Shown here piece by piece: positions 7,533 to 22,844 of a DNA stretch of 41,149 nt (position 1 is the first letter of the stretch; every line of letters begins with the position of its first letter). Both the position numbers and the translations under genes were made by a program. Under the pieces are notes generated by a model, which was given only the letters and a program-made list of their open reading frames with translations, was not told the origin of the DNA and made no database searches. Origin of the DNA: a virus. Location of the stretch: UHGV virus genome UHGV-0455966. One strand, 5' to 3'.

Positions 7533-7763
7533 TCATGAGTAGAAGAAGTATGCCAGTTCTGCTTTTGAGCGCAGCCATTGTCTTGTTTTACAGGCTTTAA
7601 AAAGCCCATTCATCAATACTTTACCTGGCATTTTGCGCTTACCTGTTAAGTGAGTCTGGATATAGTGACTCGTCGTTCCGGCTTCCTGTGCGAAGGCTTC
7701 ACGCTCATCCGGAGTAAGTGCAAGCCAGTGCTTTTTGAAATCGAAATGTCCGTTATCGCTCAT
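7533..7763 (-). CDS. Cro-like HTH regulator
   Basis: HTH-like DEREAFAQEAGTTSHYIQTHLTGKRK; divergent from repressor; first gene of the operon leading to O/P. Confidence 0.6.
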   Translation of the reverse strand: MSDNGHFDFKKHWLALTPDEREAFAQEAGTTSHYIQTHLTGKRKMPGKVLMNGLFKACKTRQWLRSKAELAYFFYS

Positions 7764-7917: not shown

Positions 7918-8502
7918 ATGAAAAGTATCCAGGACGTCCGCAGGCAAAATCTCAACGACTTGATCGACCGTGAATTCAATGGTGTTCAGACGCGGATGGC
8001 AGAAAAACTTGGAACTCAGGCAAATCTGGTAAACCGCTGGGCTCTTGGCAAGAAGGTTATCGGCGACCAGGTTGCACGAAAAATTGAAGCTGCCGCCAAT
8101 AAACCCCGTAACTGGCTTGATATTGATCGCTCGCTTTCTCAGGAGGGTTTTCAGCCTGTCGGCCCGAGTGATATAGGTCAGCTGGCGGCTCACAACCTGG
8201 AACGCTGGATGAGCGAAAGCCGCGACCTTTCAACGCAGGGAAAACTACACCGCGCATCCGGCGTCGCCCAGGTGACAATCAGCCGCCTGTTAAACAATGA
8301 GGTCAGCGTTTCCATTTCCACCCTGGAGAATGTTGCATCCGCATTCGGGCGTCACGGCTATGAATTACTGATTCACCCGCACGACCCTGCGACCATCAAC
8401 TATGATCGCTCGCGCTACGCATTGTTACCCGAAACCGAGAAAGCAAAGATCGAAAGTTACATTGAATTTGTCATCAACCAGAACGAAAAAAACAAACAAT
8501 AA
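7918..8502 (+). CDS. prophage repressor with two HTH domains, no S24 peptidase motif
   Basis: HTH 1 QTRMAEKLGTQANLVNRWALGKK, HTH 2 LHRASGVAQVTISRLLNNEVSVSISTLENVASAFG; no GDSM/Ser-Lys dyad region; divergent from Cro-like gene. Confidence 0.7.
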   Translation: MKSIQDVRRQNLNDLIDREFNGVQTRMAEKLGTQANLVNRWALGKKVIGDQVARKIEAAANKPRNWLDIDRSLSQEGFQPVGPSDIGQLAAHNLERWMSESRDLSTQGKLHRASGVAQVTISRLLNNEVSVSISTLENVASAFGRHGYELLIHPHDPATINYDRSRYALLPETEKAKIESYIEFVINQNEKNKQ

Positions 8503-16410: not shown

Positions 16411-18596
16411 GAAACTTCCCCATTGGTTGAAAATATGGCTCCTCCAACGCCAAGTGTATTTCGTGTTGTGCTCAACCTCAGAGGGCTGGAGTCAGAATTA
16501 GAATATCCTGTAGCAGAAATAAAAGATCCTCCACTAATAGTCAACTGCGGAACATCGGCTATATCTGAATAAGTTCTGTCAGCAACAGTATTATTTATAG
16601 CCACATATGATCCAAAAAAACTTCTTATTGTTTGGTTTTTAACTTTACTTCCTTCAATGGTTATCCTACTACCACAGTCGGCAATAAATCCTGAATCTGC
16701 ATCCAGCGTTGCATTCATAAAAGAAGCTTCAGATCTCTCTACATCAATCCATCTAATATCTTTTGTGGGATTTGCACCAAATACATGACAAATATTAGAG
16801 TTAAACCTTACACCATCTTGGAGGTGCATTAATTTTTTTATATCTGTACCCCATAGCCTTGGAAAATTAACAGATGCTCCTGCATGGCAATCAAATCCCA
16901 GCTCAGCCCCTGAGATATCTACAGCCTTTCCTGAAATAACAGCACCAGTGTCTGCATTAACGGCTGTTCCACAATTGCGCATATCATTACCAGCAACATC
17001 AACGCAACCCGCACCATCAATACGCACACCAAGTGCACATCCATAAAAACCTTTTTCAATATTTGGTTCAAGGACTTTACCACTTGTTTCTGCATCACTT
17101 TCTTCAACGTCATGTCGTCTTGCATCAACATATGCTGTATGAATGCAGGTTAATCCACGATATGAGCAATGTATAGTTTTATGGTCGCGTATATTAACAT
17201 TTGAACCATCTCTTACATTCCATCCTATATAACAATAGCTTGCACTTGACCCCTGAAAATCTGCTTTAACATTATAAATACAATTAACTGACGCAACCGT
17301 ACTCTCTGTGCACCGTTCAAACTTGCTTACAGGCATTGATGCCTTGACATTATTTACCAGTTGCAGGGAAGAGTATCTGCTATAAGAAAAATCACATACG
17401 TAATATCCTTCTGGCATATATGCAGCAACACTTTCCTCATCAGGAGCACATCCGGTATGATATGCACTAATTTTTGCACCAAAACTACCATGAATTCCAA
17501 CGTAGAACTTTCGAGCACCTGAATACGGATAGAAATTAAGTTCAGCTTTTTGAGTTACAATAAATGCACAAACATCGCTATCATCTCTATTTTCTTCGAT
17601 CTGAATAGCAAATACAGGACTTTTTGCTGCATCGCAAATGTAAAATAAATACTTGTATTCGTAATACGTTCTAACGATTTTAGTAAACAAACGAGTGTCA
17701 GAGAAAACCACTGAGTCTTCTGATGTTATTTTAATCCAAGACAAATCAACACCTGAACTGAATTCAATTTGATAGTTGATAATATGCCCGGTCTTAATTC
17801 TTATTTCGCAGAAAGCATTACCACCATCCCACATAGGTCTCATTGACTGGGCTGCAATGATTGCATCTTTGAGTGTAGGGTAATCACCCCATTCGCCAAC
17901 AGTAATAACAAAAGTATAATATGAGTTAAAAACAGCGGCATTTTTGCCTTTGGATATCAACTCCTTAATCATAAAAATATTATCTTCGTAATCACAAGGA
18001 GAAATTATATCCCTCATTTTGCTTTGAAATGTTCGTTGTCTTGCCCCGCTTCCTGACGGTATAAACCAACCAAAACCACCAACAACCCCGGCGATTGCAG
18101 CATCGACATAATTACGCATTGAGCGATTATTTACAGCGTCCTGCTCAAATGATGGATCTGCAAGGTTAGAAATTTTGTTTTGCTTTGCATCGTAATATTT
18201 TGCAAGCAAAGATGGTTTCATCAATGCACGTCTGAACCACCCAAAACATTGCTGGATCAGCATCGTCAGGTAGTCAAAGGCATCTTCATGCACTTCGGGG
18301 AAAAATTTTCCCTGATTGCGAAGGTCTGTCTCCTGCACTACATCAAGCACACGATCTATCGTAATTCGCCATCCAGTAGCAAGCGGAGACGGAAGAACCA
18401 CAGAACCGCCACTATAAGTGCCCGCCCCAGTTACCGTATAACCGGTATCCAGAACCAATTCTGTTACGTTTCCGTTCAGGTCAGACACCTGAACAACCAG
18501 GTCTGATTTTCTGAAAACTCGAAAAGTATACGGAAACGATGTCGTAACGCCGTTACCGGTGTATTCGTTGTGGTCAACTTCGGTTGAGACCGTCAT
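16407..18596 (-). CDS. tail fibre / tailspike with T7 gp17-like N-terminal adaptor domain
   Basis: N-terminal ~110 aa resemble T7 gp17 N-terminus by eye; long AT-rich C-terminal region typical of exchangeable receptor-binding or enzymatic domains. Confidence 0.7.
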   Translation of the reverse strand: MTVSTEVDHNEYTGNGVTTSFPYTFRVFRKSDLVVQVSDLNGNVTELVLDTGYTVTGAGTYSGGSVVLPSPLATGWRITIDRVLDVVQETDLRNQGKFFPEVHEDAFDYLTMLIQQCFGWFRRALMKPSLLAKYYDAKQNKISNLADPSFEQDAVNNRSMRNYVDAAIAGVVGGFGWFIPSGSGARQRTFQSKMRDIISPCDYEDNIFMIKELISKGKNAAVFNSYYTFVITVGEWGDYPTLKDAIIAAQSMRPMWDGGNAFCEIRIKTGHIINYQIEFSSGVDLSWIKITSEDSVVFSDTRLFTKIVRTYYEYKYLFYICDAAKSPVFAIQIEENRDDSDVCAFIVTQKAELNFYPYSGARKFYVGIHGSFGAKISAYHTGCAPDEESVAAYMPEGYYVCDFSYSRYSSLQLVNNVKASMPVSKFERCTESTVASVNCIYNVKADFQGSSASYCYIGWNVRDGSNVNIRDHKTIHCSYRGLTCIHTAYVDARRHDVEESDAETSGKVLEPNIEKGFYGCALGVRIDGAGCVDVAGNDMRNCGTAVNADTGAVISGKAVDISGAELGFDCHAGASVNFPRLWGTDIKKLMHLQDGVRFNSNICHVFGANPTKDIRWIDVERSEASFMNATLDADSGFIADCGSRITIEGSKVKNQTIRSFFGSYVAINNTVADRTYSDIADVPQLTISGGSFISATGYSNSDSSPLRLSTTRNTLGVGGAIFSTNGEVS

Positions 18597-18700
18597 GTTA
18601 AATCTCCAGATAGTCGCAGCACCCGTTGCGCCGCATATCTGGTTATTCTATTACCTGGAAAACCACATATGGATAGAAAGGCTGTAAATACGAATAGATA

Positions 18701-18715
18701 TTACCTTTCAGGTAA
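18701..18715. promoter_or_regulatory. palindrome TTACC-tttca-GGTAA
   Basis: Perfect 15-mer, identical to the site at 39249-39263; AACCACATA box ~32 bp upstream. Confidence 0.6.
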
Positions 18716-18752
18716 TTTGCAAAACGTGCTGGATAGCAAACAAATTATTTGC

Positions 18753-18772
18753 TACTGTATAAATATACAGTT
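18753..18772 (+). promoter_or_regulatory. LexA (SOS) box over the -10 region of the small antirepressor-like gene
   Basis: TACTGTATAAATATACAGTT = CTGT-N8-ACAG, matching the E. coli LexA consensus TACTGTATATATATACAGTA at 18 of 20 positions; 20 bp upstream of ATG 18792. Confidence 0.7.
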
Positions 18773-18791
18773 ATTGCATGGAGAAGATAAG

Positions 18792-19049
18792 ATGCAGCAG
18801 TATCACTATCCACTGGAAGACGGATTTACCGAAAGGATTCACACGCCGGGAGGCGTCAGGTCACTGGTGGAGGGATCGCACTTGATGAAATTACTCCGGG
18901 ATCTCGATAAGGATGGATTTAATGTCGATGGCCCACTTGCCGAACTGACTGCACTGATTAACTACGTCACCAGCTCACAGATGTCTATGCAGGATCTGCA
19001 AACACATCTCGACTATTGTGCCGAACAATTACGAAAACAAACCCGGTAA
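18792..19049 (+). CDS. small antirepressor-like protein (SOS-controlled candidate)
   Basis: GGAGAAG RBS; C-terminal LMKLLRDLDKDGFNVDGPLAELTALINYV...LQTHLDY matches the C-terminus of the BRO-N antirepressor at 20435-21130. Confidence 0.55.
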   Translation: MQQYHYPLEDGFTERIHTPGGVRSLVEGSHLMKLLRDLDKDGFNVDGPLAELTALINYVTSSQMSMQDLQTHLDYCAEQLRKQTR

Positions 19050-19073
19050 ATTTAAAGGCCGCAAGAGCGGCCA

Positions 19074-19580
19074 TTAACAGTCGTAAAATTCCGGGTCCCA
19101 CAAACTTGCATCGCGCGGCATGGATTCTAAATTTTTCAGCCGCAAAATTCTGTCACACTCGACAAGAAGTTTTTGTTTTTGTTCGTCAATTTCTACTTTT
19201 TTGTGTGCTGGCTCATCCCAGTAATCCAGAAGAAACGCATGTCGCTCAGACGTTACAAGATAAATCACATACACATCACTGGTTGGTATTTTTTTATGCT
19301 TGTTGGTGGTCTTGTCTTTCTTCCCGGATGCCCAGTTTTTCCAGCATTGTTCCGTACCGCTCTCACCAAACTTGTCAGTATAGTTTCCGATGTTTACGTG
19401 AACGTGGCGTATGTGATATTCCAGCATCTCTTTCGGTGGATCCCGAAACAGAGTGTCCTTTCCGAAATCCTTATGATGACCGTAGCGCCAGTGATCTATG
19501 AACGCGTTTTTGATAGGTATTAGCTCAGGGTCCTTCCCAAAAATTCCAGGGTGAACCAACCCCTGGAATTTATTCAGCAT
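19074..19580 (-). CDS. hypothetical basic protein, toxin-like candidate
   Basis: His-rich HIRHVHVN motif and Lys-rich centre; second gene of a two-gene cassette overlapping the upstream gene by 11 nt. Confidence 0.45.
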   Translation of the reverse strand: MLNKFQGLVHPGIFGKDPELIPIKNAFIDHWRYGHHKDFGKDTLFRDPPKEMLEYHIRHVHVNIGNYTDKFGESGTEQCWKNWASGKKDKTTNKHKKIPTSDVYVIYLVTSERHAFLLDYWDEPAHKKVEIDEQKQKLLVECDRILRLKNLESMPRDASLWDPEFYDC

Positions 19581-19989
19581 CGTCGTAGAGCTCCTGAGCC
19601 ATATCTTCGGCAGTGCGTGCAAACATCCTGCGCGAGATTGCATGAGATTTCTCGACGGACATCTTTGGGACCTCATGCATAACATTTTTGGGAGTTGTGT
19701 AATAGCCTATTACAATTTTCACACCTGACTTATGATTAATATCAGCATAATATACTTCTTGTTCAGACGTTTCACGACGAACATAATCTGCCAGTTTTCC
19801 ACATTTAAATTCCCCTCCCTGATGTTTTAAAATCTCCTCAACTGCACTATTTTCAGTGAAATACCGAATAAGAAATTTCTGTCCAGACTCTTCAGCATGA
19901 GGTATAACAGTATTATTGGAAGCCCGAACAATGGCCTTACTCAATATTTCATGGTCTTTATTTTTTTCTGATTTCCTCAAATGCTGCAT
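19570..19989 (-). CDS. hypothetical protein, first gene of the cassette (antitoxin-like candidate)
   Basis: ATG at 19989 with GAGAG RBS; acidic C-terminal tail AEDMAQELYDDAE. Confidence 0.4.
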   Translation of the reverse strand: MQHLRKSEKNKDHEILSKAIVRASNNTVIPHAEESGQKFLIRYFTENSAVEEILKHQGGEFKCGKLADYVRRETSEQEVYYADINHKSGVKIVIGYYTTPKNVMHEVPKMSVEKSHAISRRMFARTAEDMAQELYDDAE

Positions 19990-20150
19990 TACTGTAGCTC
20001 TCTTCGTGTTCACGGGCACCCCCAACTACCTCTAGGGTAAACATTCTATCGAAAGTATACGCATACTGGCAAAAAAATAGGCAGGTATTTTCTGAAATGG
20101 GATCAATCAAACCACATAGGGTTGAAATAACGTGAGTTATGCATTTATTA

Positions 20151-20165
20151 TTACCTTTGCGGTAA
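20151..20165. promoter_or_regulatory. palindrome TTACC-tttgc-GGTAA
   Basis: Perfect 15-mer; AACCACATA box at 20110-20118. Confidence 0.6.
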
Positions 20166-20169
20166 ATTT

Positions 20170-20277
20170 ACATCGCACTCCTCTTGTGCCATAGTAATCG
20201 GGCACTGGAAAAATCCAGTGCCGGGATTGGCGTCCCGGATTACTAAAAGGCGCATTCACCGCGCAAGCGGTTTTTTT
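20170..20277 (+). ncRNA. candidate small structured RNA / structured leader upstream of antirepressor
   Basis: Y-shaped fold: outer stem AGTAATC/GATTACT (20193-20244) enclosing hairpins GGCACTGG/CCAGTGCC and GGGA/TCCC; then CCGC-gcaa-GCGG + T7 terminator (20257-20277). Confidence 0.35.
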
Positions 20278-20434
20278 ATGCGTATAGCACGGCCACATTC
20301 GTATTATGGTGGGCTGTGTGGGGGCACCGAAAGGTGCGCCGGGTCCTTTTAGCCGGTTACGCCAACCCTGCACAGTTCACCACCAACCGATTGGCGTCGG
20401 TAGTGGTGATTAACCAGACTAAAAGGTAACCACT

Positions 20435-21130
20435 ATGACAGCTACAAAAAGCACGTCCATTTTTTCTTTCGAATCCCAAGCCGATATACGGGTAATCGTC
20501 ATTAATGGTGAGCCATGGTTTATCGCTTCAGATGTTTGTCGGGCTATAGGCATAGCAAATCATCGAGATGCTGTTCGAAAACTTGATGATGATGAGAAGG
20601 GCGTCGCTTCAACCGACACCCCTGGCGGTGAGCAAGAATCGATCATCATCTCCGAGTCAGGCCTCTACACACTGATCCTCCGCTGCCGCGACGCAGTGAC
20701 ACCAGGCACTATCCCCTACCGCTTTCGTAAATGGGTTACAGGTGAGGTTCTTCCTCAGATCCGCCGCACCGGAAGTTACATTAAAAACTCGCTCCCGCAG
20801 GAAGAACGCATAAAGATGGTTGCCGACCAGGTAGCCAACGCCACAGCATCAGCAGTGATGCAGGCAATGAAGATAGAGAACAAAACCTACAGTGCCCCAC
20901 TGAAGCCCGGCTACCGCAGCCTGATTCATTCGCCGTCTGGTGTTCTCGGCCTGACGGAGAACTCACTGCTGATGAATCTGCTGAACCAGTTACAGGAAGA
21001 CGGGCACGACGTATCGGGCGCGGCGGCGGAGCTGACCACCATGTTCTGCTACATCGTCGGTGTGAGCAAATGCCTGCGTGATATCCAGACCCACGCGGAG
21101 TACATCAACGACAAGGCAGGGTTCTTCTGA
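20435..21130 (+). CDS. BRO-N-domain antirepressor
   Basis: N-terminal FESQADIRVIVINGEPWFIASDVCRAIGIANHRDAVRKL typical of Bro-N/Ant proteins; C-terminal domain shared with 18792-19049. Confidence 0.7.
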   Translation: MTATKSTSIFSFESQADIRVIVINGEPWFIASDVCRAIGIANHRDAVRKLDDDEKGVASTDTPGGEQESIIISESGLYTLILRCRDAVTPGTIPYRFRKWVTGEVLPQIRRTGSYIKNSLPQEERIKMVADQVANATASAVMQAMKIENKTYSAPLKPGYRSLIHSPSGVLGLTENSLLMNLLNQLQEDGHDVSGAAAELTTMFCYIVGVSKCLRDIQTHAEYINDKAGFF

Positions 21131-21242: not shown

Positions 21243-21452
21243 ATGGGATTTTGGTTCGCTCGTACAAAAACGAGGGATAATGCACCCAGCCCTCAGGCAA
21301 AAAATGCAGAAGTTCCGGCGTCAGCGCAGGTTAACAAGCGTGGTGGTGTGTATATCTCATCACAGCAAATTTCTGAGCTTCCTGAGGTTAAGGAGATGCG
21401 TCGTCTCGCTGCTGCAATCGTTAAACAGGATCTTGCCACTGTAAGGAAATAG
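21243..21452 (+). CDS. hypothetical small protein, first gene of accessory operon
   Basis: GAGGAGGAG RBS; normal GC; TAG stop overlaps GTG start of next gene. Confidence 0.5.
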   Translation: MGFWFARTKTRDNAPSPQAKNAEVPASAQVNKRGGVYISSQQISELPEVKEMRRLAAAIVKQDLATVRK

Positions 21453-22315
21453 TGTTGTTAGCTCTTCTAATTATCCCCATTCTGGTTAGTGGTTATATTA
21501 TGATAACCGCTAACCAGTATCATTATTTCCGTTTATACCGACATGAAGGCCAGCTTCTTTATATGAAAGTTGCTGCATTAGGTACATATTGCCTTGTTGC
21601 TTCGGTAATAATTGCCGCATTTATAAAATATAAATATCCTGATTTTCACCTAGTTCACGATATGGTGGAAACTTTTAATGTAACGTCAAAACCAGAAACA
21701 GATAGAATTTACATGTGGCTACTTCTTCTGTCAGTCACATCAATTTGCTTCTCTTTGTGTTATGTATCTTTTGTTTGGCTAAAAGATCTTCTTTTAGGTT
21801 GTTTTTATAAACGTGATATTTATGACAAAATATCAGAGGCAATGAAAGCTAGGGTATTGCGAAAAACGTACTCCCAGGGTTCTTTAGATTTGCTATTGCT
21901 TGATGCAATCGAATCAGATCCTAAGAAACCAATGTTAATTACTTTATCATCAAATAAAGTATACGTTGGAATAATAAATGGTTCTGGTGAGCCAACGGAA
22001 AATCAAGGGCCACACCAACACATATCTTTTGTTCCTTTAATGTCAGGGTACAGAAACAAAGAAAATTTATCTGTTACATTTACAAACGCTTACCCAGGTG
22101 AAATCCAAATTAAGCGCAGTGCTGCGATAAAAGGGATAAGCAAAAAGAAAGTTCAAGGTCTAGAAATTATGGTATCTATAGACGAAATAAGTCATATATC
22201 ATGGTTTGACTTTGAAGTATATAAGGCAACAAATAACAAAGTAGAAACAAAGGGTCATGTTGTTAATGTGACCAAAAATGGTCGCAACATATACTACAGA
22301 AGTGGCAGAAAATAA
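21452..22315 (+). CDS. AT-rich membrane protein (3 N-terminal TM helices + soluble C-domain), unknown function
   Basis: GTG start with AAGGA RBS; hydrophobic segments LLALLIIPILVSGYIMI, VAALGTYCLVASVIIAAFI, MWLLLLSVTSICFSLCYVSFVWL; sharp drop in GC at gene start. Confidence 0.6.
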   Translation: MLLALLIIPILVSGYIMITANQYHYFRLYRHEGQLLYMKVAALGTYCLVASVIIAAFIKYKYPDFHLVHDMVETFNVTSKPETDRIYMWLLLLSVTSICFSLCYVSFVWLKDLLLGCFYKRDIYDKISEAMKARVLRKTYSQGSLDLLLLDAIESDPKKPMLITLSSNKVYVGIINGSGEPTENQGPHQHISFVPLMSGYRNKENLSVTFTNAYPGEIQIKRSAAIKGISKKKVQGLEIMVSIDEISHISWFDFEVYKATNNKVETKGHVVNVTKNGRNIYYRSGRK

Positions 22316-22331: not shown

Positions 22332-22844
22332 GTGGCTTATATGGATAATACTATCTTAGGCGCATTGATAGGTGCAGTTATTGCTATAGTTTCCACTTAT
22401 ATAAATGCAGGACAAGGATACAAAAACAGCATAAGATTAGAGCGACAAAAAATATTAAGGGATAAACGCGAGCAATTATTTATAAATTGTATACTTACTA
22501 AAAAAGTCATAGATTCAAGCACAATTACCATTCTCAATTTCGTAAAAAATGCCAGATACCACTCTGATAGTAAATTTGACGTATCAAGAGCGAATCCGTT
22601 GCAAACGATGGAAATGCTAATAAACATATACCTTCCTGAGTATAAAAAAGACTTACAAGAACTCAATAATGCGTATCAAGAATTTCACAAATACTACTCT
22701 CAATATACATGTGCACATACCTTCAAAAATATGCCTGATAATGAGAAGTCGAGGTTTATTGAGGAGGCTGATTTTTATGCAAAAAAGATATATGGCAAAC
22801 TTAATGATATTAAGGACAAGATATCATTAAACTCAATAGTATAA
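22332..22844 (+). CDS. AT-rich single-pass membrane protein, unknown function
   Basis: N-terminal TM ILGALIGAVIAIVSTYI then helical soluble domain; 16 bp after upstream gene. Confidence 0.6.
   Translation: MAYMDNTILGALIGAVIAIVSTYINAGQGYKNSIRLERQKILRDKREQLFINCILTKKVIDSSTITILNFVKNARYHSDSKFDVSRANPLQTMEMLINIYLPEYKKDLQELNNAYQEFHKYYSQYTCAHTFKNMPDNEKSRFIEEADFYAKKIYGKLNDIKDKISLNSIV

What the first reader, a model, noticed from the sequence alone, without database searches (positions are those of the whole stretch)
19074..19989. Two-gene cassette between tail fibre and antirepressor: toxin-antitoxin-like or abortive-infection candidate
Two overlapping minus-strand genes with their own upstream region carrying a TTACC-N5-GGTAA site. 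The downstream product is basic with a His-rich motif (HIRHVHVN) and, by recollection only, resembles YafO-type ribosome-dependent mRNA interferase toxins. The upstream product ends in an acidic tail typical of antitoxins. The family assignment is unverified.
Basis: inference. Interest (0 to 1): 0.5.

Follow-up and report, generated by a model that had tools for sequence, protein, structure and literature searches.

The report
Prophage YafO-type toxin with novel antitoxin
This is a 1.1-kb insert in an E. coli phiV10-like prophage that most likely encodes a YafO-family RNA-cutting toxin and a previously unclassified antidote protein; it is an ordinary kind of system, but the antidote is built in an unusual modular way and its promoter carries the phage's own operator motif.

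Summary
The two overlapping minus-strand genes are real and conserved. They are always adjacent in the 42 related loci I parsed.

- **Antidote (probably 19570-20013, GTG start, 147 aa).** It has no known family and is not YafN-like.
  - Its last 36 residues (a predicted helix with an acidic end) co-vary with the toxin subgroup.
  - Its N-terminal ~110 residues are only 26-31% identical between cassettes whose toxins are 93-99% identical, so this part looks like a swapped module.
- **The TTACC-N5-GGTAA site is not the cassette's own.** It occurs 16 times in the window (0.6 expected) and 14 times in phiV10, which lacks the cassette. It looks like the phage's dispersed operator.
  - A second, 9/10 copy lies just after the -10 of the cassette's own promoter.

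Toxicity, neutralisation and any anti-phage role are untested. Verdict: a new variant of a known kind, of moderate interest.

The parts
19050..20150 (-). Limits of the inserted cassette (terminator, T, A, promoter). It replaces about 45 bp of phiV10.
   Evidence: In the alignment with phiV10, identity stops after the TAA at 19047-19049 and resumes at the TTACC palindrome. Only 58 of the 999 E. coli genomes that match any part of the 18600-20450 query cover at least 80% of it.
19074..19580 (-). Gene T: a 168-aa divergent YafO-family (RelE/HigB-fold) toxin, a presumed mRNA endoribonuclease.
19570..20013 (-). Gene A: a 147-aa presumed antitoxin of an unclassified family (phrog_9503).
   Evidence: Homologues have ATG where the window has GTG 20013. 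There is no Pfam or PDB relative and no similarity to YafN.
19573..19680 (-). Last 36 codons of A (MHEVPKMSVEKSHAISRRMFARTAEDMAQELYDDAE): the presumed toxin-neutralising helix with an acidic end.
   Evidence: This stretch is nearly invariant in 25 clusters while the rest of A varies. The motif changes with the toxin subgroup in 42 loci. It is the only part of the A model with pLDDT 63-76, and it is helical. In TL-2011b the 59-aa partner is little more than this motif.
19650..19990 (-). Hypervariable, swapped segment of gene A (N-terminal and central part of the protein).
   Evidence: DNA identity to L015, L017, L018 and L020 is 30-64% here. In L015 and L017 it is at least 94% in the bins immediately on both sides; in L018 and L020 the flanks are mostly 74-96%. 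Protein identity is 26-31% in the N-terminal part, against 89-100% in the C-terminal 36 aa and 93-99% in T.
19541..19571 (-). Perfect 11-bp hairpin with a 9-nt loop. It starts inside A's stop codon, 9 nt after T's ATG. It probably couples or limits T expression.
   Evidence: z about -3.3. In 9 sequences 90.9% of cells are paired, 2 pairs show compensatory changes, and the covariation score is reached by 1 of 500 shuffles. It is absent in the Klebsiella and Serratia subgroups.
20043..20072 (-). Candidate sigma-70 promoter of the A-T operon (TTGCCA, 18 nt, TAGAAT).
   Evidence: It matches 10 of 12 consensus positions and is the best hit in the region. It is conserved in L015, L017, L018 and L020.
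20026..20040 (.). A 9/10 copy of the phage operator motif (TTACCctagaGGTAg on the minus strand). It lies 2 nt after the -10 of the A-T promoter.
   Evidence: It is conserved in L011, L017, L018 and L020. It has the same '-10 then operator' layout as other sites.
20151..20165 (.). It is a backbone operator at the plus-strand c4/isrK/ant promoter (TTGAAA, 18 nt, TATTAT, 20122-20151).
   Evidence: It is present in phiV10, which has no cassette. The arms are invariant while the spacer varies between phages.
19057..19072 (-). GC-rich hairpin directly after T's stop codon: a terminator-like end of the cassette.
   Evidence: Six G-C pairs, a 4-nt loop and the tail TTTAAATTT. Extended inverted repeat at 19052-19077.

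Best explanation
The region is a self-contained insert ('moron') in a phiV10/epsilon15-like (Uetakevirus) prophage. It most likely encodes a type II toxin-antitoxin pair.

**Toxin.** T is an enlarged, divergent member of the YafO family with a RelE/HigB-type fold. By homology it should stop growth by cutting mRNA.

**Antitoxin.** A is made first from the same transcript. I infer that it neutralises T through its conserved C-terminal helix and acidic end.
- A's N-terminal two thirds is an exchangeable module of unknown role.
- This module does not look like the usual operator-binding domain. It differs almost completely between cassettes whose promoter DNA is more than 94% identical.

**Control of expression.**
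- The operon has its own sigma-70-like promoter.
- Directly after the -10 lies a copy of the palindrome found at the phage's early and immunity promoters. I therefore infer that transcription is set by a phage regulator, probably the 194-aa HTH repressor, rather than by antitoxin autoregulation.
- The 11-nt gene overlap and a hairpin at the junction should tie T synthesis to A synthesis.

**Shown here:** gene structure, conservation, homology, fold, mosaic pattern and motif statistics.

**Inferred:** toxicity, neutralisation, which protein binds the palindrome, and the biological role (defence against other phages or prophage retention).
For: **Toxin homology**
- PF13957 is hit by 11 of 15 close relatives and 31 of 52 wider relatives.
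- hhalign of the family against canonical YafO gives 98.9%, E 1.8e-17, over 122 columns.
- The residues shared with YafO are invariant.

**Pair structure**
- In 42 of 42 loci the upstream ORF overlaps T or lies within 5 nt of it. Its C-terminal motif tracks the toxin subgroup.
- A minimal 59-aa partner exists in TL-2011b.
- Only the C-terminal helix of A is confidently modelled.

**Insert status**
- The cassette is absent from phiV10 at the same site.

**Regulation**
- Promoter.
- The operator motif occurs 16 times against 0.6 expected, and flanks the divergent HTH genes.
- The same layout, with the operator directly after the -10, recurs at several other sites.
- Operator copies lie upstream of A in diverged cassettes.
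- The mosaic pattern has conserved promoter DNA.
- The junction hairpin shows compensatory changes.

**Biochemistry of YafO**
- PMC2814082 and PMC8546651.
Against: - The window's own T gives no Pfam or NCBIfam hit even at E 1. BLASTP against K-12 YafO aligns only 54 residues.
- The close-family profile alone reaches only 63.6% hhalign probability.
- Foldseek finds nothing significant in the PDB or BFVD.
- No solved YafO structure exists to compare with.
- A has no detectable DNA-binding or known antitoxin domain, and its model is poor (pLDDT 49).
- The similarity I saw by eye between A's C-terminus and YafN's failed both statistical tests.
- There is no PADLOC hit.
- Nothing here shows toxicity, binding, transcription, or which protein binds the palindrome.
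- If the binder is the lysogeny repressor, the pair may be largely silent in the lysogen. That sits badly with a simple defence role.
Confidence: 0.78

Rival explanations
1. It is a phage-sensing abortive-infection system. The variable N-terminal module of A recognises a protein of an invading phage, or is destroyed on infection. That frees T, which then shuts down translation before the invader completes its cycle. The module is swapped because invaders escape recognition.
For: - The N-terminal module is 26-31% identical next to near-identical DNA, which points to exchange rather than drift.
- The same N-terminal types are combined with different C-terminal motifs.
- The cassette sits in a variable cargo slot of a prophage.
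Against: - There is no PADLOC match, no experiment, and no paper found on this family.
- The operator copy at the promoter suggests repression in the lysogen.
- The N-terminal part is predicted with low confidence and may simply be weakly constrained.
Confidence: 0.3
2. It is a lytic-cycle device rather than a lysogen function. The pair is repressed in the lysogen by the phage repressor and switched on with the early genes after induction or infection. T then degrades host mRNA in a dosed way, with A as the brake.
For: - The operator copy lies directly after the -10 of the A-T promoter. Sites at early promoters beside the repressor, replication and ant genes have the same layout.
- Operator copies lie upstream of A in diverged cassettes.
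- The cassette is carried by an isolated phage, EC.W1-9.
Against: - The site has one mismatch. The binder and the direction of its effect are unknown.
- Most phiV10-like phages do without the cassette.
- A toxin made together with an excess of its antidote would give little shut-off.
Confidence: 0.2
3. It is a retention (addiction) module. Cells that lose the prophage, or that receive a damaged copy, lose the unstable A and are stopped by the stable T.
For: - Type II architecture with the antitoxin gene first, gene overlap and a coupling hairpin.
- The P1-like features of this phage's immunity region (c4 RNA, dispersed operators) recall P1, which carries phd-doc (and general knowledge).
Against: - An integrated prophage is lost rarely, so the benefit would be small.
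- Truncated T copies exist in databases (P0012-P0014).
- There are no data on the half-life of A.
Confidence: 0.2
4. It is not a working toxin pair. T is a YafO-like fold that has lost activity or acts on something else, and A is an unrelated small phage protein that happens to be co-transcribed.
For: - There is no direct family hit for the window's proteins.
- T carries a ~30-residue insert and a ~20-residue tail that YafO lacks.
- A has no known fold.
Against: - The residues shared with YafO are invariant across 52 sequences.
- The strict pairing, and the co-variation of A's C-terminus with T, are hard to explain without physical interaction.
Confidence: 0.07

Closest known systems
YafN-YafO of E. 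coli K-12 (type II toxin-antitoxin; Pfam PF13957 YafO_toxin with a Phd/YefM-type antitoxin)
   Same: - The toxin is homologous over its full length.
- It shares the FG(K/R)D, H-x-H, T-S-D, Y and H positions.
- The antitoxin gene comes first and overlaps or abuts the toxin gene.
   Different: - T is 168 aa against 132 aa. It has a ~30-residue insert after the H-x-H strand and a ~20-residue C-terminal tail.
- Pairwise identity is about 18%.
- The partner is not YafN or Phd-like.
- The pair sits in a prophage cargo slot, not in the dinB SOS operon.
HigB2/RelE-type ribosome-dependent mRNA endonucleases (RelE/ParE, BECR fold)
   Different: - Sequence identity is 8-17%.
- Foldseek does not reach significance.
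- Gene order is antitoxin first, unlike higBA.
TL-2011b gp45/gp44 and other phage-borne members of phrog_1651
   Same: - The same enlarged YafO-like toxin type: 31% identity, E 9e-23.
- The same C-terminal partner motif ending in E.
- The same kind of phage, near the ant gene.
   Different: - It lies in the other variable slot, downstream of ant.
- The partner is only 59 aa, without the large N-terminal module.
P1-type immunity (C1 repressor with many dispersed operators; immI with c4 RNA and ant)
   Same: - A palindromic operator-like motif is spread over the genome at promoters.
- c4 antisense RNA, its a1/b1 targets and an antirepressor lie next to the cassette.
   Different: - The motif is different, and the regulator is a two-HTH XRE-type protein.
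- I know of no P1 toxin pair reported to be under C1 control (own knowledge).
- Binding has not been tested here.

Membership tests
YafO toxin family (Pfam PF13957) | The protein itself matches the PF13957 model. | tested here: not met
   The window's T gives no Pfam hit at E up to 1, or up to 10 when scanned as part of an alignment. It gives no NCBIfam hit either.
YafO toxin family (Pfam PF13957) | Homology to canonical YafO, shown through relatives or profiles over the whole domain. | tested here: met
   11 of 15 close relatives and 31 of 52 wider relatives hit PF13957. hhalign of the family (without YafO) against a YafO alignment gives 98.9%, E 1.8e-17, covering columns 4-132 of 134. The close family alone gives 63.6%.
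YafO toxin family (Pfam PF13957) | Conserved positions shared with YafO: F, FG(K/R)D, H-x-H, TSD, Y and H. | tested here: met
   F27, G40, H61, Y107 and H126 are invariant, and D42 is nearly so, in 52 sequences including K-12 YafO. The aligned motifs are shown.
YafO toxin family (Pfam PF13957) | Inhibits translation by cleaving mRNA. | not testable with these tools
   Known for K-12 YafO (PMC2814082). Its ribosome dependence is questioned in PMC8546651.
YafN-YafO system | The partner is a YafN (Phd/YefM-type) antitoxin. | tested here: not met
   BLASTP gives E 1.9. An HMM of the A C-terminus does not find YafN. hhalign gives probability 0.1%. No A-family member hits PF02604, whereas the YafN homologues do.
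Type II toxin-antitoxin module | Two small adjacent co-directional genes in one operon, conserved as a pair. | tested here: met
   The overlap is 11 nt. The pair is kept in 42 of 42 loci, with 11- or 14-nt overlaps in 41 loci and a 5-nt gap in L048. A promoter and a terminator-like site bracket the pair.
Type II toxin-antitoxin module | The antitoxin has a DNA-binding domain and autoregulates the operon. | tested here: inconclusive
   No DNA-binding domain was found and the model is poor. The N-terminal module varies while the promoter DNA stays more than 94% identical, which argues against a matched operator-binding domain.
Type II toxin-antitoxin module | The toxin is toxic and is neutralised by direct binding of the antitoxin. 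| not testable with these tools
   There is only indirect support: the C-terminal motif of A co-varies with the T subgroup.
Known anti-phage defence systems (PADLOC-DB 2.0) | A match to a model of a described defence protein. | tested here: not met
   There are no hits for T, A or the neighbouring unknown ORFs at E up to 1.

The most novel reading that the evidence does not exclude
The pair is a defence system built in a new way. A minimal C-terminal peptide holds a YafO-type RNase in check. An exchangeable N-terminal module of the antidote acts as the sensor that decides which invading phages trigger it. The whole unit is wired to the resident phage's own repressor, so it is coordinated with the prophage's immunity state.
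Probability: 0.15. Interest if true: 0.7.

Novelty: new variant of a known kind. Interest (0 to 1): 0.42.

Why it matters
- YafO is one of the least understood RelE-type toxins. It has no solved structure, and whether it needs the ribosome is disputed.
- This phage-borne branch is small: 71 representatives among 1.84 billion proteins. It gives a second, well-separated set of sequences that fixes which residues are essential.
- It also shows that a YafO-type toxin can be held by a partner unrelated to YafN.
- The antidote's layout is a short toxin-specific tail plus a swappable front. Together with a promoter that appears to answer to the phage repressor, this offers a simple model for asking what triggers prophage toxin pairs.
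- The practical gain is modest: a better name for a 'hypothetical protein' present in about 1% of complete E. coli genomes.

Tried and rejected
1. **Direct family scans.** Scans of T and A against Pfam, NCBIfam and PADLOC gave nothing. Only PHROGs families of unknown function matched.
2. **Foldseek of the T model.** Searches against the PDB and BFVD gave no significant match. The afdb50 library was not available.
3. **Structure of A.** The model was too poor (pLDDT 49) to search with. Profile searches against the PDB and Pfam were empty.
4. **A's C-terminus versus YafN.** I thought A's C-terminus resembled YafN's (…DDDFNDFKE against …ELYDDAE or …EEEFDVFE). An HMM search and hhalign against five YafN homologues did not support this, so I dropped it as a claim.
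5. **The palindrome as the antitoxin's operator.** Rejected, because the motif is genome-wide and is present in phiV10, which lacks A.
6. **Species-representative genomes.** The scan gave only one further locus, in Serratia.
7. **Literature.** Searches found no paper on this phage-borne family.

Full report
**What is there.**
- The window is a phiV10/epsilon15-like (Uetakevirus) prophage of E. coli.
- Region 18600-20450 is 100% identical to the chromosomes of E. coli IHE3034 and APEC O18, and 95% identical to phage EC.W1-9.
- Two minus-strand ORFs are present as described. T is 19074-19580 (168 aa). A ends at 19570. Its stop codon overlaps T's start (ATGctgaaTAA, 11 nt).
- Both ORFs match PHROG families of unknown function (phrog_1651, E 2e-46; phrog_9503, E 3.5e-88).
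- Neither ORF matches Pfam, NCBIfam or PADLOC on its own.
- RefSeq names the identical T protein (WP_000932553.1) 'type II toxin-antitoxin system YafO family toxin' and calls A hypothetical. I could not reproduce that name with single-sequence scans, so I tested it independently.

**The cassette is an insert.**
- phiV10 has the same flanks but lacks the two genes. About 1.1 kb (roughly 19050-20150) replaces about 45 bp between the stop of the small plus-strand ORF (18792-19049) and the TTACC palindrome.
- 999 of 5,426 complete E. coli genomes match part of the query. Only 58 cover at least 80% of it.
- Only one of 50,697 phage records covers at least 80% of it.
- Other phages carry different content in this slot. 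TL-2011b has a second YafO-like pair in the next slot, downstream of ant.

**The toxin.**
- The family is small: 14 clusters at 90% identity, and 71 representatives with E up to 0.001 among 1.84 billion proteins.
- PF13957 YafO_toxin is hit by 11 of 15 close relatives (best E 1.6e-5) and by 31 of 52 of the wider family.
- BLASTP of T against K-12 YafO aligns only 54 residues.
- The close-family profile against a canonical YafO alignment gives 63.6%.
- The wider family was collected only with the window's family profile and does not include YafO. It gives 98.9%, E 1.8e-17, over 122 columns that span YafO residues 4-132.
F27, G40, H61, Y107 and H126 are invariant in 52 sequences including YafO.
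- T differs from YafO by an insert of about 30 residues and a tail of about 20 residues.
- The AF2 model is good (pLDDT 84.4, pTM 0.82).
- Foldseek found nothing significant, and no YafO structure exists.
- YafO inhibits translation by mRNA cleavage (PMC2814082). Its ribosome dependence has been questioned (PMC8546651).
- T is near neutral (pI 6.8), not basic.

**The partner.**
- A probably starts at GTG 20013. Four homologues have ATG at that position, and RefSeq nt.
- A has no Pfam or PDB relative and no similarity to YafN.
- Its model is poor (pLDDT 49), except for a C-terminal helix at residues 120-146.
- In 25 clusters the last ~36 residues are almost invariant while the rest varies.
- In the 42 loci I parsed (38 IMG/VR contigs, three Klebsiella-type loci L005-L007 and one Serratia locus), T is always preceded by an ORF that overlaps it or ends within 5 nt of it. 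The C-terminal motif of that ORF changes with the toxin subgroup: …KMSVEKSHAISRRMF…ELYDDAE, …KMSFTEACALSRELS…ASFDGPE, or …KLSSAESKEISFRQL…EEFDVFE.
- In TL-2011b the partner is only 59 aa and consists of little more than this motif.
- I infer that the C-terminal helix and acidic end form the neutralising element.

**A swapped module inside A.**
- Compared with cassettes whose T is 93-99% identical and whose A tail is 89-100% identical, the N-terminal ~110 residues of A are only 26-31% identical.
- At the DNA level, identity drops to 30-64% between about 19650 and 19990. In L015 and L017 it is at least 94% immediately on both sides, including the promoter. In L018 and L020 the flanks are mostly 74-96%.
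- One N-terminal type occurs with different C-terminal motifs in different lineages.
- This pattern indicates exchange of a module, not drift.
- Because the promoter DNA stays the same while the module changes, the module is unlikely to be a matched operator-binding domain.

**Regulatory signals.**
- The best promoter candidate for the operon is TTGCCA, 18 nt, TAGAAT (20072-20043). It is conserved in relatives.
phiV10, which has no cassette, has 14 at matching places.
- Pairs of sites flank the divergent HTH genes 7533-7763 and 7918-8502. At several sites a -10-like hexamer lies directly before the palindrome.
- A second copy with one mismatch (20026-20040) lies 2 nt after the -10 of the A-T promoter. 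It is conserved in L011, L017, L018 and L020.
- Diverged cassettes in Klebsiella- and Serratia-type phages also have a copy shortly upstream of A.
- I infer that a phage regulator, probably the repressor, controls the cassette. Binding was not tested.

**Junction hairpin.**
- A perfect 11-bp stem (19541-19571) starts in A's stop codon, 9 nt after T's ATG.
- Across nine sequences 90.9% of cells pair. Two pairs show compensatory changes, and only 1 of 500 shuffles reaches the observed covariation score.
- The hairpin is confined to the E. coli-type subgroup.
- It probably couples T translation to A translation, or attenuates transcription before T.
- A GC-rich hairpin follows T's stop codon.

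**Verdict.**
- It is a toxin-antitoxin pair of a known kind, with a divergent toxin branch, an unclassified modular partner and probable control by the phage.
- Toxicity, neutralisation, regulation and role all need experiments.

Noticed in passing
window 1650, 1668, 5455, 5517, 7463, 7800, 7848, 8560, 8622, 13847, 18701, 20026, 20151, 21202, 39249, 39866: TTACC-N5-GGTAA (up to 1 mismatch) occurs 16 times against 0.6 expected. Several copies lie directly after a -10-like hexamer. Pairs of copies flank the divergent HTH genes 7533-7763(-) and 7918-8502(+). It looks like a dispersed operator of the phage repressor, in the manner of P1. phiV10 has 14 copies at matching places.
   Followed up: partly
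window 20189-20387 (+): Rfam finds three matches upstream of the Bro-N antirepressor gene: c4-a1b1 targets (20189-20241; 41.7 bits, below the family's gathering score of 46.7), isrK (20202-20277) and c4 antisense RNA (20302-20387). Together they form a P1/P7-type immI region in a podovirus. Part of it is about 80% identical to DNA in many Stx phages.
   Followed up: partly
window 21452-22315 (+) and 22332-22844 (+): Two unknown ORFs (287 and 170 aa) with hydrophobic N-terminal stretches lie downstream of ant, behind another operator copy (21202). They have no confident Pfam hit (only a sub-threshold hit for the 170-aa ORF) and no PADLOC hit. This is a second variable slot. IHE3034 has other genes here, and TL-2011b has a YafO-like pair.
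   Followed up: partly
L054 1574-2273 (phage TL-2011b gp45/gp44): A second phage-borne YafO-like pair. The toxin is 181 aa, 31% identical to T (E 9e-23). The partner is only 59 aa and carries the same kind of C-terminal motif.
   Followed up: yes
proteins P0075 (1649 aa), P0090 (3067 aa), P0102 (723 aa), P0110 (2207 aa): Very long proteins match the T-family profile in 6-10 separate stretches each. They appear to contain tandem repeats of a YafO-like segment. Their origin and meaning are unknown.
   Followed up: no
window 18792-19049 (+) and 20435-21130 (+): The small ORF next to the cassette (homologous to phiV10 p24, which its record notes as similar to epsilon15p19) shares the phrog_450 domain with the C-terminal part of the antirepressor. 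It is like a free-standing copy of the Ant C-terminal domain.
   Followed up: no
window 16407-18596 (-): The flanks are 100% identical to IHE3034, but the tail-fibre gene differs. It is 729 aa here, against a 1039-aa endosialidase in IHE3034 and other types in phiV10 and EC.W1-9. This is receptor-binding module exchange next to the cassette.
   Followed up: no
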